13,143 bases of DNA from a virus (taxonomy: Duplodnaviria; Heunggongvirae; Uroviricota; Caudoviricetes), in IMG/VR virus record IMGVR_UViG_2917413769_000007, positions 1 to 13,143 of that record; one strand, given 5' to 3'. The notes beneath the pieces were generated by a model. It did not search any database and had not been told where the DNA came from. It saw nothing but the letters and a program-made list of their open reading frames with translations. Shown here piece after piece: positions 4,806 to 12,357 of the stretch. The number at the start of each line of letters is the position of its first letter. The first letter of the stretch is position 1. A program made the position numbers and the translations under genes.

Positions 4806-5252
4806 TTAAACGCTGGTCAGGCGCTGTGTTTCCTGTATGGCTTGTAATGCCTGCGCTATACGCTGGGGTCGATCCCTTGCTTCAAGCAACAGAGCAATAA
4901 TCGCCGCGGCAAAATCACGAATCGCAATGCAAATTAACTGCTGAGTGGTCATTCCCAGCTGTGCATATCGTTCCGCAGGCAACGCAGCTTCCATCGCCAT
5001 GGCCAGCGCTTTCGTTTTGATTCTTGCCGCTTTCGTCTCACCACGTAGCCAGCGAAAAATCTGCTGCCGGTTGTTGTTGATAGCCCGCCAGTCAGCATTA
5101 CCTTTCGAATCCTCCATCGGGTGAAGTTTTACGTAGCTGGTATTGCCACCCATTCGAAACCACATGCGAGTGATCTCAATAGCAACATGTTCCTGGCCAC
5201 GCTCAGCAGCCCAGTTGAAGATTTCTCTTTTCAGTTCGTCGAGGTTTTCCAC
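4806..5252 (-). CDS. ydaT: YdaT-like protein (Rac-prophage YdaT family)
   Basis: 148-aa ORF with GTG start and AGGAG 10 nt upstream; segment WRAINNNRQQIFRWLRGETKAARIKTKAL matches my recollection of YdaT; located directly downstream of the Cro-like gene as in Rac. Confidence 0.7.
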   Translation of the reverse strand: MENLDELKREIFNWAAERGQEHVAIEITRMWFRMGGNTSYVKLHPMEDSKGNADWRAINNNRQQIFRWLRGETKAARIKTKALAMAMEAALPAERYAQLGMTTQQLICIAIRDFAAAIIALLLEARDRPQRIAQALQAIQETQRLTSV

Positions 5253-5275
5253 TTCGTCGCGTCTCCTGTCGCTGA

Positions 5276-5298
5276 AAACCTGATTAAGCGTAATCAGA
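5276..5298. repeat. 23-bp element AAACCTGATTAAGCGTAATCAGA with internal palindrome, copy 1
   Basis: Identical to 10629..10651. Contains CTGATTA-AGCG-TAATCAG. Lies between the Cro-like and YdaT-like genes; on the transcribed (minus) strand the hairpin is followed by GUUUUC. Confidence 0.5.
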
Positions 5299-5316
5299 TT
5301 TCAAATACGCTCTTTG

Positions 5317-5517
5317 TTAAGCTGCAGTTGTGTTGTTCGGTTCCAGATAAAATTCGGGGTCATATTTCAAAGCCCCATCAGTAACACGATCCAACCTTGC
5401 AGCTCGGCGCTCAGGTATCACATTTCCCCAGCGAGATACTGCTGGAAGTGAAACTCCTGCGGCTCGAGCCAGCTTTGTGGCGCTCCCAAAGAACGCTAAA
5501 GCATCGTTTTTAAACAT
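5317..5517 (-). CDS. dicC: Cro-like HTH regulator, DicC/YdaS family
   Basis: 66 aa, MFKNDALAFFGSATKLARAAGVSLPAVSRWGNVIPERRAARLDRVTDGALKYDP, matches DicC/YdaS pattern from memory; divergent from the repressor gene; SD GGAG 7 nt upstream of ATG. Confidence 0.8.
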   Translation of the reverse strand: MFKNDALAFFGSATKLARAAGVSLPAVSRWGNVIPERRAARLDRVTDGALKYDPEFYLEPNNTTAA

Positions 5518-5598
5518 TGCCGATCTCCATTTTGTTAACTTTAAGAAACAAAATTACGAGTTAAAGAAAATTAAGTCAAGTAAATTTATATTAACTAC
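5518..5598. promoter_or_regulatory. Divergent promoter/operator region of the immunity switch
   Basis: 81-bp AT-rich intergenic region between divergent repressor and cro-like genes; minus-strand -35 TTGACT (complement of 5574..5579); operator-like 18-mer GTTAACTTTAAGAAACAA at 5534..5551 with flanking inverted repeat TTTGTT/AACAAA. Confidence 0.5.
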
Positions 5599-6009
5599 AT
5601 GAACAAAATCAGCCCTGGCGAGCGCATTAAAAAGCGACGTAAAGAACTCAACCTAACTCAGCGTGAAGTCGCAAAACTCGCGCAGGTATCGCACGTCACA
5701 ATCTCTAAATGGGAAAACGATGACAACGAGCCTCAGGGCAGGAACTTGTTCCAGTTGAGTCAGGCCCTGCAATGTTCACCCACCTGGATTTTATACGGGG
5801 ACGAAGACAAACAGCCCGAGCCTCCAGCAGTATCTGAAGAAGATAAGATCACATTAGATGAGCTTGAAGAGCAGCTACTCGAGCTTTTCAGGGCACTACC
5901 CAGTTCAGAAAAAGAACGCCATTTAACTGAGCTTCGCGGAAAAGTGGACGATTTTAATCGTCTGTTTTACGAATTGCTCCAAGCAAGAAAAACCTCCAAG
6001 AAAAAATAA
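5599..6009 (+). CDS. dicA: HTH (XRE-family) repressor, DicA-like
   Basis: 136 aa; HTH segment LTQREVAKLAQVSHVTISKWEN; LQCSPTWILYGDEDKQP and LLELFRALPSSEKE match my recollection of E. coli DicA; no peptidase S24 domain. Confidence 0.9.
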   Translation: MNKISPGERIKKRRKELNLTQREVAKLAQVSHVTISKWENDDNEPQGRNLFQLSQALQCSPTWILYGDEDKQPEPPAVSEEDKITLDELEEQLLELFRALPSSEKERHLTELRGKVDDFNRLFYELLQARKTSKKK

Positions 6010-6045
6010 ATCCATTAAAATCAAATAAATGGATGAGTGTCGCCC

Positions 6046-6110
6046 TTTTATTTAACTTTTATAAACAAATTTATGTTGACTGATAATTTAACCTTTATTA
6101 AATTAACTTC
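6046..6110 (+). promoter_or_regulatory. Candidate early-left promoter with second operator copy
   Basis: TTTAACTTTTATAAACAA (6051..6068) matches the 5534..5551 operator-like 18-mer at 15/18 positions; followed by TTGACT (6076..6081), a 17-nt spacer and TAAATT (6099..6104). Confidence 0.4.
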
Positions 6111-6217
6111 CATCAACGACGCACTAACCACGCGGCAGTTGTTCAGAAAAACGTTCCGCCGCCGGGCGTAAAGCGGATGAGGGAATCGGCGCTAACAACA
6201 AAGCAATGGGGTGAGTG

Positions 6218-6535
6218 ATGGAATTCAGCAAGCTGCCACACGAAGTGCAGGTAATTGCCGCCAAATGCCTGGCAGACGAAATCAATACAGTTTCAGGTTT
6301 TGCAGGCAATGAGGTTAACCGCGGTCCCGCTAAAGAGCAGGCCAAACAGGTTCGTGACGCATTCATTGCTCTTTTTTCAGAGCGCGAGATGGAAGGTGAG
6401 AAAAAAGCGGCAGCAGAGAGAATTGCTGCCACCATCGCAGGCATGCAGCAACTGATTGGTAGCGATGAGGTGCTAAAAACCCAAGTTAAACATCTGATTT
6501 CAGCGACTGAAGATTTGCTTGATAAGTGCCTGTAA
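6218..6535 (+). CDS. Hypothetical protein (105 aa), first gene after the repressor
   Basis: Coding-like composition (MEFSKLPHEVQVIAAKCLADEIN...); GGGGTGAG upstream of ATG; the opposite-strand ORF 6124..6576 is low complexity and judged non-coding. Confidence 0.55.
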   Translation: MEFSKLPHEVQVIAAKCLADEINTVSGFAGNEVNRGPAKEQAKQVRDAFIALFSEREMEGEKKAAAERIAATIAGMQQLIGSDEVLKTQVKHLISATEDLLDKCL

Positions 6536-6736
6536 TTGGTAAGTGACCGATACACCATCTCCGTTAGATGGTCCATCTACATCAGGAAATCGAAGGGTGA
6601 CATTGTTTTTAAGGGCTTTTAGTTGTTCTGAAGTTAACAGTTTAAGGGCTTCATCAAGCATTACGTTTGTTGCTTCCAGAGTGGCTTCTGAGACTTTTGG
6701 CTTAATTTCCTCAAGCATTTTAGAAAGTTGACTCAT
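6500..6736 (-). CDS. Hypothetical protein (78 aa), convergent with 6218..6535
   Basis: Internal ATG at 6736..6734 of the tracked ORF is preceded by AAGG 7 nt upstream; product MSQLSKMLEEIKPKVSEATLEATNVMLDEALKLL...; candidate -10 TATACT (complement of 6769..6774). Confidence 0.4.
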   Translation of the reverse strand: MSQLSKMLEEIKPKVSEATLEATNVMLDEALKLLTSEQLKALKNNVTLRFPDVDGPSNGDGVSVTYQLQALIKQIFSR

Positions 6737-6885
6737 GTTTTTACCTTGCTGGTTATGTGAGAACGCCCAGTATACCACCGAGCCTGAAGTGGCTAAAAGA
6801 CAGGCAACGAATTCGCGGGTCGCCGCCAGTACGATGACATGCGGGAAAGACCGCAATGAATCCAAAATTGCTGTGTGTAGTCTTT

Positions 6886-6912
6886 GCCCAGCCACCACGG
6901 TGGGCACTTTTT
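6886..6912 (+). terminator. Candidate intrinsic terminator (plus strand)
   Basis: GC-rich hairpin GCCCA-N10-TGGGC (or CCAC-CACG-GTGG) followed by ACTTTTTTTC. Confidence 0.45.
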
Positions 6913-7111
6913 TTCACACAGTTACGATTTTACCGTTGTGACTGAGTCTCCAGACGGAGAGGCCAAACCCACAATGTGACACCAGGGAAAGACCGAAGGA
7001 AGTACAACGCCTGACCAGCGTAAACCGAGCATGACCAGCTCTGGCACCGGGGAAGACCGGAAGAGGAAAGACCTGATGGCCTCACCAGCCTGACTGCCGG
7101 GAAAGACCGGC

Positions 7112-11093: not shown

Positions 11094-12113
11094 ATGGGGC
11101 GCAGAAGAAAGGATCCGGGTGATAACAGGTTACCCCCGCGCGTATCAAAAACCAGAACTCGTTACTACTACAAACCCACCTCGCGGGAGACCGTGACGCT
11201 TGGACCAATCACCTTCACTATGTCGGCGTTATGGAAACGGTACGAAGAAGAGCGACGCAATTATTCAGATGTGATGACGTTCGAAAAGCTCTGGAAGATG
11301 TTTCTTAAAAGCGCCTACTACACCGAGCTTGCAATACGAACCCAGCGGGATTACCTGCAACATCAGAAAAAACTACTTGTCGTATTCGGTAAAGTTAAAG
11401 CTGATTTAATCAAACCGGAAGACGTTCGTCAGTTTATGGATCGTCGTGGCCTACAAAGTAAAAATCAGGCTAACCAGGAAATGAGCAGTATGTCGCGTGT
11501 TTACCGCTGGGGATACGAACGCGGTTACGTTAAGGGAAACCCGTGCGCCGGCGTCAGTAAATTCTCTCTCAAGGCCCGCGAGCAATACATCACTGACGAA
11601 GACTACCTGGCGATTTATAAACATGCAGATCACGTCGTCAGGGCAGCAATGGAAATATCGTACCTGTGCGCAGCCCGGCAAGCTGATGTACTCGCTCTGC
11701 GCTGGATGCAGATATCTGACAAGGGGATTTTTATCCAGCAGGGTAAGACAGGGAAAAAGCAAATTAAGGTGTGGACGCCCCGCCTTCGGCAGGCGCTGGA
11801 AACGGCACAGACAGAATGCCCGAGGCTCTCACCTGATTCACTGGTTATCTATAACAACGATCGTGCTCAGTTCATCCGCAAGACGTTCAATAATCGCTGG
11901 CTAAAGGCCGTACGTGCCGCACAAAGCGAACTGGGCCGGCAACTGGATTACACGTTTCACGATATAAAGGCAAAAGCCATTTCAGATTTTGAGGGGAGTA
12001 GCAGGGATAAGCAGATATTTAGCGGTCACAAAACAGAAAGTCAGGTGCTTATCTACGACAGAAAGGTGCAAATCAGTCCGACGCTGGATCGTCCTTTGAT
12101 AAATGGCCAGTAG
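11094..12113 (+). CDS. int: Tyrosine recombinase / phage integrase
   Basis: 339 aa; alignable by eye to lambda Int catalytic region: AARQADVLALRW (Arg-I), QQGKTGKK (Lys), TFHDIKAKAISDF (His box), FSGHKTESQVLIYDRK (His-II and Tyr). Confidence 0.9.
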   Translation: MGRRRKDPGDNRLPPRVSKTRTRYYYKPTSRETVTLGPITFTMSALWKRYEEERRNYSDVMTFEKLWKMFLKSAYYTELAIRTQRDYLQHQKKLLVVFGKVKADLIKPEDVRQFMDRRGLQSKNQANQEMSSMSRVYRWGYERGYVKGNPCAGVSKFSLKAREQYITDEDYLAIYKHADHVVRAAMEISYLCAARQADVLALRWMQISDKGIFIQQGKTGKKQIKVWTPRLRQALETAQTECPRLSPDSLVIYNNDRAQFIRKTFNNRWLKAVRAAQSELGRQLDYTFHDIKAKAISDFEGSSRDKQIFSGHKTESQVLIYDRKVQISPTLDRPLINGQ

Positions 12114-12212: not shown

Positions 12213-12357
12213 GTCCATTTTTCAGATATGGTCGGGTAGCGCGTATACCGAAAAACAGCCGAAAGGTTAAGGATACGGGCCGACTTTGCACGGTGTTCAA
12301 GTACCTGACCGCCCTGCTGAACACAGGGCTATCTGAACAAATGCAAAGGACATAAAA

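What the first reader, a model, noticed from the sequence alone, without database searches (positions are those of the whole stretch)
5534..6068. Operator-like 18-mer shared by the divergent immunity promoter and the promoter region downstream of the repressor gene
GTTAACTTTAAGAAACAA (5534..5551) and TTTAACTTTTATAAACAA (6051..6068) match at 15 of 18 positions. The first overlaps the inferred -10/start region of the cro-like promoter; the second lies just upstream of a TTGACT-N17-TAAATT promoter candidate reading into the early-left genes. This matches established DicA behaviour in Qin, where one repressor controls both dicC and the dicB operon. The repressor ATG also has no SD and a -10-like TATATT sits 6 nt upstream, so its mRNA may be leaderless like lambda cI from PRM.
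Basis: partly seen in the sequence, partly recalled or inferred. Interest (0 to 1): 0.4.

Follow-up and report, generated by a model that had tools for sequence, protein, structure and literature searches.

The report
DicA/P22-type prophage operators, already-known design
The two similar 18-mers are real and are almost certainly binding sites for the prophage's DicA-like repressor at its two early promoters, the same well-known switch layout as in E. coli prophage Qin and Salmonella phage P22, so the finding is correct but ordinary.

Summary
That match alone is only marginal for two AT-rich regions (P about 0.04). Shifting the frame by one base gives 16/18, and the similarity extends to 24/30, which no shuffle out of 1000 reached.

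The gene between the two sites encodes a 136-aa DicA-subfamily repressor with a P22 C2-like N-terminal domain. It is divergent from a P22-Cro/DicC-like gene.

Site 1 (20-bp form 5532-5551) is the positional equivalent of Qin Oc, which was shown in vivo to bind DicA, and of P22 OR1. It spans about -8 to +12 of the cro-like promoter. Site 2 (6049-6068) is the equivalent of P22 OL2 and the distal site at Qin dicBp, and lies at -63 to -44.

In relatives whose repressors are 68-98% identical, both sites survive as conserved islands. Change is confined to the central positions, which in P22 the repressor does not contact. In 73 of 80 unique DicA-family loci, the locus's own Oc-like sequence recurs downstream of the repressor gene.

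The leaderless idea fits: no SD in 15 loci, and Qin dicA mRNA is leaderless by dRNA-seq.

Verdict: interpretation supported; a new member of a known kind; low interest.

The parts
5317..5517 (-). cro-like gene (66 aa, P22_Cro / DicC-like); GGAG Shine-Dalgarno at 5525-5528
   Evidence: Pfam P22_Cro 67.6 bits against a cut-off of 30.2. PDB 1rzs P22 Cro, E 3e-11. NCBIfam DicC 70.8 bits, below its cut-off of 130.
5532..5551 (.). Oc / OR1-equivalent operator TTGTTAACTTTAAGAAACAA (18-bp core 5533-5550).
   Evidence: Same position as Qin Oc and P22 OR1. Invariant in relatives except 5542-5544.
5551..5579 (-). cro-like promoter: -35 TTGACT (5579-5574), 17-nt spacer, -10 TAATTT (5556-5551). Predicted start about 5542-5545.
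   Evidence: Read from the sequence. Position-homologous to the Qin dicC promoter, whose start was mapped by 5'RACE. Not listed by the consensus scan because the -10 matches only 3/6.
5558..5577 (.). OR2-like site GAGTTAAAGAAAATTAAGTC (core AGTTAAA-GAAA-ATTAAGT) overlapping the -35 and spacer of the cro-like promoter
   Evidence: One of only two TTAA-N6-TTAA matches in the window. Same position as P22 OR2, 12/18 identical by my own comparison of the two sequences. Changes in L027 fall near its centre.
5578..5598 (+). Repressor promoter core and degenerate OR3-like region: -10-like TATATT 5587-5592, right half-site TTAACTA 5591-5597, then 6 nt to the ATG. The -35 is poor (AAGAAA 5564-5569).
   Evidence: Invariant 5574-5595 in relatives, with only the 3 nt before the ATG varying. 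P22 OR3 abuts the c2 ATG in the same way. No SD.
5599..6009 (+). Repressor gene (136 aa): P22 C2-like HTH N-terminal domain plus a DicA-type C-terminal region, with no S24 peptidase domain
6010..6034 (+). Weak A/U-rich hairpin (ATCCATT-N11-AATGGAT) directly after the stop codon; possibly a weak terminator or 3'-end element
   Evidence: -5.4 kcal/mol, z -1.8. Hairpins with different stem sequences at the same place in L018, L021, L025 and Qin. Not a canonical terminator.
6049..6068 (.). Od / OL2-equivalent distal operator TATTTAACTTTTATAAACAA (core 6050-6067).
   Evidence: Conserved island between diverged flanks. Same position as the distal sites at Qin dicBp and P22 PL.
6076..6104 (+). PL/dicBp-like promoter TTGACT-N17-TAAATT; predicted start about 6111-6112 in the conserved CCATCAAC
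   Evidence: Ungapped alignment with Qin dicBp and 12 other loci. P22 PL is TTGACC-N17-TAAATT.
6085..6104 (.).
   Evidence: The second of the two TTAA-N6-TTAA matches in the window. Exactly the position of P22 OL1, AATTAAGAAGTCTTAAAT, and of Qin ATGTTAGTCATGGCTAATCT. Only central bases vary in relatives.
6110..6150 (+). Conserved 5' leader of the early-left transcript (CCATCAACGACGCACTAACCACGCGGCAGTTGTTCAGAAAA)
   Evidence: Conserved in relatives down to 66% repressor identity. About 84% match to unannotated DNA in E. coli chromosomes. No Rfam family.

Best explanation
The two 18-mers are the cores of two operators of a DicA/P22-immC-type lysis-lysogeny switch. The 136-aa repressor, presumably a dimer, uses its P22 C2-like helix-turn-helix to recognise 18-20-bp imperfect dyads whose outer bases carry a TTAA / TTGTT-type half-site.

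At the divergent promoters:
- Oc (5532-5551) covers -8 to +12 of the cro-like promoter and blocks it.
- The -35 of the cro-like promoter lies inside the spacer of the weak repressor promoter. Shutting off the cro-like promoter, and/or contact from bound repressor, therefore favours the repressor's own transcript.
- That transcript starts at or within a few nt of the ATG and is leaderless.

Downstream of the repressor gene:
- Op (6085-6104) covers the spacer and -10 of the PL/dicBp-like promoter and occludes RNA polymerase.
- The Cro-like protein probably uses the same sites in the opposite sense.

Shown here: the sequences, their positional homology, their conservation, and their family-wide recurrence. 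Shown in the literature for homologues: DicA binding to Oc, DicA repression of dicC and dicBp, leaderless dicA mRNA, and the P22 repressor-operator contact rules. Inferred: all binding and all transcript starts in this particular prophage.
For: 1. Protein identity. DicA subfamily at 191 bits (cut-off 101) and 55% identity to Qin DicA. The N-terminal domain matches P22 C2, E 6.5e-17 to 2.3e-16 for the three P22 C2 chains, with Val33 conserved. The Cro-like protein matches P22 Cro.

2. Positional homology.
- Oc lies at the same distance from the -35 and ATG as Qin Oc, TTGTTAGTCATAACTAACAA. DicA binds Qin Oc in vivo, and a single A-to-C change abolishes binding.
- Qin Oc overlaps the dicC -10, and the dicC start was mapped by 5'RACE.
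- P22 OR1/OR2/OR3 and the OL1- and OL2-like 18-mers occupy the same five positions.
- Thirteen loci align without gaps across Od, the -35, Op, the -10 and the leader.

3. Footprint in relatives (repressors 68-98% identical).
- Od is a conserved island. DNA between the stop codon and Od is 50-55% identical, against 81-88% from Od onward.
- The intergenic region is 84-89% identical, against 66-76% for the coding sequences.
- Substitutions fall at positions 10-12 of the 18-bp frame in Oc and Od and at positions 10-11 in Op. This matches the P22 rule that the central bases 8-11 are not contacted.

4. Family-wide recurrence. In 73 of 80 unique DicA-family loci, the locus's own Oc-like 20-mer recurs after the repressor gene at the distal or proximal position (P <= 0.05 against shuffles). 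The half-site type changes together at all sites: TTAAC, GTTAG or TTGAG types.

5. Statistics.

6. Regulation in Qin. Deleting dicA induces dicBp 22-fold.

7. Leaderless mRNA.
Against: - There are no binding or transcript data for this prophage.
- Dyad symmetry of Oc and Od is weak. Only the outer TTGTT/AACAA pair is symmetric, and the right halves lack TTAA.
- Od lies outside the core promoter.
- In Qin, two of the three sequence-inferred operators (Om, Oa) did not bind DicA when tested alone in vivo. O2 and the O3-like region here may therefore be non-functional for the repressor.
- The whole 81-bp intergenic region is conserved, so the footprint there is not site-specific apart from the variable centre of Oc.
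- The 15/18 match on its own is only P about 0.04 locally.
- The -10 of the cro-like promoter matches the consensus at only 3/6 (one search did not list it).
Confidence: 0.85

Rival explanations
1. The second site (6049-6068) is mainly an A/T-rich UP element or other promoter-architecture element of the PL-like promoter. Its resemblance to site 1 would then be a by-product of AT-rich promoter DNA, not a repressor site.
For: It lies at -63 to -44, the usual UP-element zone (established knowledge of sigma-70 promoters). It is very A/T-rich and does not touch the core promoter. The 15/18 match alone is marginal.
Against: In other DicA-family loci the site at this position is not UP-like and copies that locus's own Oc. 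Examples are Qin ATGTTAGCTATAGCATACAA, and L010/L011 with an exact TGAGTTTTCTCAAT core. Variation in relatives is confined to the operator centre, as in Oc. The 24/30 match was never reached by shuffles.
Confidence: 0.06
2. The shared sites are used mainly by the Cro-like protein rather than by the repressor. Alternatively, the two proteins divide the sites: Oc and Od for the repressor, and the TTAA-N6-TTAA sites O2 and Op for the Cro-like protein.
For: The Cro-like protein is a clear P22 Cro homologue. O2 and Op have the P22-type TTAA-N6-TTAA core, whereas Oc and Od have only one TTAA half. Qin DicA did not bind Om or Oa alone.
Against: Qin DicA does bind Oc and represses both promoters. The repressor keeps the TTAA-reading Val33. 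In P22 and lambda, repressor and Cro share all operators (established knowledge). There is no direct evidence for a division of sites.
Confidence: 0.07
3. The similarity is chance between two AT-rich non-coding stretches.
For: Both regions are 75-77% A+T. A best 18-mer match of at least 15 arises in about 4-5% of shuffles.
Against: 16/18 has P about 0.006, and 24/30 was reached in 0 of 1000 shuffles. There is a conserved island in diverged flanks. Positional homology to Qin and P22 operators holds. The pattern recurs in 73 of 80 loci.
Confidence: 0.02

Closest known systems
Qin prophage immunity region of E. coli K-12 (dicA, dicC, operator Oc, dicBp)
   Same: - A repressor of about 135 aa in the same NCBIfam subfamily, 55% identical over the full length.
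- A divergent P22-Cro-like gene.
- A 20-bp operator directly after the -10 of the cro-like promoter.
- Distal and proximal operator copies around TTGAC-N17-TAAnnT downstream of the repressor gene, in ungapped register.
- No SD before the repressor ATG, and dicA mRNA is leaderless.
   Different: - The half-site is TTGTTAA/TTTAAC here, not TTGTTAG.
- Oc here is only weakly symmetric (TTGTT...AACAA), whereas Qin Oc is a perfect 7+7 inverted repeat.
- There are 3 nt fewer between the -10-like hexamer and the ATG.
- The downstream operon lacks dicF and dicB. It carries an unknown 105-aa ORF, an RprA-like element, a 740-aa YdfE_N/exonuclease-like protein, a Gam-like protein and an integrase.
Salmonella phage P22 immC (c2, cro, OR1-3, OL1-3)
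   Same: - Homologous repressor N-terminal domain (about 50% identity, Val33 kept) and homologous Cro.
- The same order of sites: OR1 after the PR -10, OR2 over the -35 (AGTCAA on the c2 strand), and OR3 abutting the repressor ATG.
- PL is TTGACC-N17-TAAATT, with an 18-bp operator in the spacer and -10 and another just upstream of the -35.
- TTAA half-site core, with an uncontacted and variable centre.
   Different: - P22 C2 is 216 aa with a RecA-sensitive C-terminal domain. The protein here is 136 aa with a DicA-type C-terminus and no S24 peptidase, so induction is probably by an antirepressor, as with Rem in Qin.
- Oc and Od here have a non-TTAA right half (AAACA).
- No OL3-like third site is seen.
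Phage lambda cI/Cro switch (OR/OL, PRM leaderless cI mRNA)
   Same: The same logic: one repressor controls the divergent PR/PRM pair and PL, the operators overlap the promoters, and the repressor mRNA is leaderless.
   Different: The DNA-binding domains are unrelated in sequence at this level, and the operators are 17 bp with a different consensus. Lambda cI is SOS-cleavable, and cooperativity and looping are documented for lambda only.

Membership tests
DicA-type prophage repressor / Qin-like immunity region | A repressor of about 135 aa: N-terminal HTH_3 (P22 C2-like) plus a short DicA-type C-terminal region, scoring above the DicA family cut-off | tested here: met
   NCBIfam NF007257 at 191.3 bits (cut-off 101), aligned 2-136 to 2-135/135. 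55% identity to Qin DicA across both domains. No peptidase domain.
DicA-type prophage repressor / Qin-like immunity region | A divergently transcribed P22-Cro/DicC-like gene across a short intergenic region | tested here: met
   Pfam P22_Cro at 67.6 bits (cut-off 30.2), with an 81-bp intergenic region. The NCBIfam DicC model scores only 70.8 against a cut-off of 130, so this is a relative rather than an equivalog.
DicA-type prophage repressor / Qin-like immunity region | A 20-bp operator (Oc) overlapping the -10 and start of the cro-like promoter | tested here: met
   5532-5551 lies at the same offset from the -35 (-42, against -41 in most family loci) and shares TTGTT-N10-AACAA with Qin Oc. 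Symmetry is weaker than in Qin.
DicA-type prophage repressor / Qin-like immunity region | Oc-like operator copies at the promoter downstream of the repressor gene (dicBp equivalent) | tested here: met
   Od at 6049-6068 and Op at 6085-6104 are in ungapped register with Qin dicBp. The same arrangement is found in 73 of 80 unique family loci.
DicA-type prophage repressor / Qin-like immunity region | The repressor physically binds these operators and represses both promoters | not testable with these tools
   Known only for Qin. This prophage needs EMSA, footprinting or reporter assays.
DicA-type prophage repressor / Qin-like immunity region | Leaderless repressor mRNA | not testable with these tools
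   The sequence is consistent: no SD in 15 loci, and TATATT lies 6 nt before the ATG. dRNA-seq evidence exists for dicA, racR and ymfK only.
DicA-type prophage repressor / Qin-like immunity region | The controlled operon encodes DicF and DicB division inhibitors | tested here: not met
   There is no DicF hit in the window, whereas Qin locus L005 gives DicF at 76.7 bits. The downstream genes differ. This concerns the cargo, not the switch.
P22 immC-type operators | 18-bp dyad with TTAA in both half-sites, 10 bp apart (consensus ATTTAAGATATCTTAAAT) | tested here: inconclusive
   O2 and Op have TTAA-N6-TTAA, the only two such matches in the window. Oc and Od have TTAA only in the left half.
P22 immC-type operators | Uncontacted, variable central base pairs | tested here: met
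   Substitutions among relatives fall at positions 10-12 in Oc and Od and at positions 10-11 in Op, set against the P22 rule.
P22 immC-type operators | A repressor with a RecA-cleavable S24 C-terminal domain | tested here: not met
   The protein is 136 aa. Only HTH-type Pfam families hit it, and PDB homology stops at residue 69.

The most novel reading that the evidence does not exclude
In this clade the operators may have split into two classes. Oc and Od have one TTAA half plus a conserved AAACAA half, while O2 and Op are P22-like TTAA-N6-TTAA sites. The DicA-like repressor and the P22-Cro-like protein would then each prefer a different class, instead of sharing all operators as in lambda and P22. 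That would fit the report that Qin DicA does not bind Om or Oa alone. It would also make the distal site Od, rather than the promoter-proximal Op, the repressor's primary anchor at the early-left promoter.
Probability: 0.1. Interest if true: 0.4.

Novelty: new member of a known kind. Interest (0 to 1): 0.15.

Why it matters
This finding gives a confident, base-level annotation of the immunity switch of an uncharacterised enterobacterial prophage: two or three operators at the divergent promoters, two at the early-left promoter, and a leaderless repressor mRNA. Exact copies of the repressor occur in two NCBI assemblies, and a 96% relative is named Salmonella enterica.

It also shows that the Qin/P22 operator layout is conserved in register across at least 80 distinct DicA-family loci, with the half-site specificity changing together at all sites. 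That is useful for predicting immunity groups. It opens no new question, because the design has been known since the work on P22 and on dicA/dicB.

Tried and rejected
- Megablast of 5250-6300 against E. coli genomes and phage records found no close relative, only short conserved pieces.
- An own-versus-other matrix scoring only the outer 7+7 bases barely discriminated between loci (11.0 vs 9.7), because the family's half-sites are similar. Full 20-mers scored against shuffles worked better.
- Oc-to-Od looping with helical phasing: the distances are 495-534 bp with no common phase, so there is no support.
- A canonical intrinsic terminator between the repressor gene and the PL-like promoter: none was found. 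The region as a whole is not unusually structured, and only a small weak hairpin is present.
- A structured or Rfam-known RNA in the conserved leader: no Rfam hit, and the fold is no better than shuffles.
- A third operator overlapping the PL start (6100-6119) was considered. I rejected it because it overlaps Op and its TTAAC is not conserved in L027.
- The primary papers of Bejar 1986 and Cam 1988 are not held in the library, so the original operator assignments at dicBp are cited only second-hand.

Full report
**Observation.** The two 18-mers are at the stated coordinates and match at 15 of 18 positions. TTGACT-N17-TAAATT lies at 6076-6104. TATATT lies at 5587-5592, 6 nt before the repressor ATG at 5599, with no Shine-Dalgarno sequence.

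On its own the 15/18 match is only marginal for two stretches that are about 75% A+T. In 1000 dinucleotide shuffles of the two regions, a best 18-mer match of at least 15 appeared in 3.6-4.8%. Shifting the frame by one base gives 16/18 (P about 0.006). The ungapped match extends to 24/30 (5527-5556 vs 6044-6073), which no shuffle reached. A degenerate core pattern, allowing up to 3 mismatches, occurs only at these two places in the window (expected 0.10).

**Context.**
- 5599-6009 (+) encodes a 136-aa protein. It scores 191 bits on the NCBIfam DicA subfamily model (cut-off 101) and is 55% identical to Qin DicA over its whole length.
- Residues 2-69 of that protein are homologous to the P22 C2 N-terminal domain, whose operator complexes have been solved. 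Val33 is conserved. There is no S24 peptidase domain.
- 5317-5517 (-) encodes a P22-Cro/DicC-like protein. It is followed by YdaT-like, replication-initiator-like and DnaB-like genes.
- The + strand downstream of the repressor carries the early-left side: an unknown 105-aa ORF, a 740-aa exonuclease-like protein (YdfE_N in precomputed annotation), a Gam-like protein and an integrase.
- Exact copies of the repressor occur in two NCBI assemblies, and a 96% relative is named Salmonella enterica.

**Positional homology.** Qin's operator Oc is TTGTTAGTCATAACTAACAA, a 20-bp inverted repeat. DicA binds it in vivo, a single A-to-C change abolishes binding, and it overlaps the -10 of the dicC promoter, whose start was mapped by 5'RACE.

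In the window, TTGTTAACTTTAAGAAACAA (5532-5551) sits in the same place. It lies directly after the -10 (TAATTT) of a TTGACT-N17-TAATTT promoter on the minus strand, spanning about -8 to +12.

Phage P22 has the same layout. OR1 follows the PR -10, OR2 overlaps the -35 (AGTCAA on the c2 strand), and OR3 abuts the c2 ATG.

Downstream of the repressor gene, 13 family loci including Qin align without a single gap from the distal site through the -35, the proximal site and the -10 to a conserved CCATCAAC leader. P22 PL is TTGACC-N17-TAAATT. It has an 18-bp consensus operator in the spacer and -10, and another just upstream of the -35.

The equivalences are therefore:
- A fourth site, GAGTTAAAGAAAATTAAGTC (5558-5577), occupies the OR2 position.

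The P22 core geometry TTAA-N6-TTAA occurs exactly twice in the 13-kb window, at these last two sites.

**Footprint in relatives.** I fetched loci whose repressors are 100%, 98%, 96%, 74%, 72% and 68% identical.
- The DNA between the stop codon and Od is only 50-55% identical to the window. From Od onward identity is 81-88%.
- The 81-bp intergenic region is 84-89% identical, whereas the flanking coding sequences are 66-76%.
- In the alignments Od is a conserved island, TTAACTT-NNN-TAAACAAA, between diverged flanks.
- Substitutions fall at 5542-5544 in Oc, 6059-6061 in Od and 6095-6096 in Op. These are positions 10-12 (Oc, Od) or 10-11 (Op) of the 18-bp frame.
- For P22 repressor, bases 2-7 and 12-17 are contacted and the central 8-11 are not. 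TTAA is read with Val33. The pattern of change is what that model predicts.

**Family-wide test.** I examined 80 unique DicA-family loci drawn from viral and genome collections. In 73 of them the locus's own Oc-like 20-mer has a significantly similar copy (P <= 0.05 against shuffles of that locus) within 140 nt after the repressor stop. In nearly all loci the best copy is at either the distal or the proximal position. The half-site type changes together at all sites: TTAAC in the window clade, GTTAG in the Qin type, and TTGAG in a third type whose recognition helix is also different.

**Mechanism.** Repressor dimers bound at Oc block the cro-like promoter. The -35 of that promoter (5574-5579) lies inside the spacer of the weak repressor promoter (-10 TATATT, poor -35). 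The two promoters should therefore exclude each other, which fits the report that DicA at Oc both represses dicC and is needed for dicA expression.

At the early-left promoter, Op occludes RNA polymerase. Od, 36 bp away, probably helps by cooperative binding. In Qin, deleting dicA induces dicBp 22-fold. The Cro-like protein probably uses the same sites.

All binding and all transcript starts in this prophage are inferred.

**Leaderless mRNA.** None of 15 homologous loci, including P22, has an SD before the repressor ATG. The -10-like hexamer is invariant in the window clade, while the 3 nt before the ATG vary. Qin dicA, Rac racR and e14 ymfK mRNAs are leaderless by dRNA-seq. The window clade has 3 nt fewer between the -10-like hexamer and the ATG than Qin or P22, which predicts a start at the A of the ATG.

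**Caveats.**
- Oc and Od are only weakly symmetric.
- In Qin the two other inferred operators (Om, Oa) did not bind DicA alone, so O2 and the degenerate OR3-like region are uncertain.
- The -10 of the cro-like promoter is poor and was not picked up by the consensus scan.

**Rivals.** Chance, an UP-element reading of Od, and Cro-only sites are each contradicted by the footprint and the family-wide co-variation, although they are not formally excluded.

**Verdict.** This is a new member of a well-known kind of switch, and interest is low.

Noticed in passing
window 6787-6915 (+), strongest part 6866-6918: There is an RprA look-alike here. Rfam RprA scores 50.6 bits, below the gathering score of 70. 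Its 24-nt seed AAUUGCUGUGUGUAGUCUUUGCCC matches the Rfam RprA consensus exactly, and it has its own terminator hairpin and U-run. The 3' part is 86.8% identical to chromosomal rprA in nearly all of the 5423 E. coli genomes that gave a match. Similar sub-threshold hits occur in the related prophage loci L014, L021 and L024. It lies in a 540-bp gap of the early-left region, roughly where Qin carries DicF. One paper search for RprA together with prophage and DicF brought up no report of a prophage-borne RprA mimic.
   Followed up: partly
window 12230-12318 (+): sRNA-Xcc1 (RF02221) matches at 68.3 bits, above its gathering score of 53. It lies just downstream of the integrase gene (11094-12113).
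   Followed up: no
window 6110-6150 (+), extending to about 6177: The leader after the PL-like promoter (CCATCAACGACGCACTAACCACGCGGCAGTTGTTCAGAAA) is strongly conserved. It is shared with relatives down to 66% repressor identity, and is about 84% identical to unannotated DNA in several E. coli chromosomes. It has no Rfam family and its predicted fold is no better than shuffles. Its function is unknown; a nut-like site or Rho-related element is possible.
   Followed up: partly
window 6010-6034 (+): A small A/U-rich hairpin lies right after the repressor stop codon. Relatives (L018, L021, L025, Qin) have hairpins with different stem sequences at the same place, some followed by U-rich tracts, and L027 has none. 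It may be a weak terminator for the repressor transcript. No canonical terminator separates the repressor gene from the next promoter.
   Followed up: partly
window 6500-6736 (-) and 6406-6433 (-): A 78-aa minus-strand gene, called in the identical loci L014, L016 and L017, converges on and overlaps the 3' end of the 105-aa + strand ORF (6218-6535). A terminator-like hairpin for the minus strand lies inside that ORF. The early-left region is therefore not a simple one-strand operon. In the 96% relatives (L018-L020) a different 74-aa ORF follows the promoter, which points to mosaicism.
   Followed up: no
window 5587-5601: The window clade has 3 nt fewer between the -10-like hexamer and the repressor ATG than P22, Qin and the GTTAG-type loci (6 nt against 9). 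The deletion also disrupts the OR3-equivalent dyad.
   Followed up: partly
phage records OM816834.1 / OM816835.1 (hits H18-H21): Two records named Stenotrophomonas phage vB_SmeS_BUCT708 and BUCT709 carry a DicA-like repressor 64% identical to this one, plus a 57-nt stretch 91.5% identical to the window's PL-leader region. That is an unexpected host label for an enterobacterial-type immunity region.
   Followed up: no
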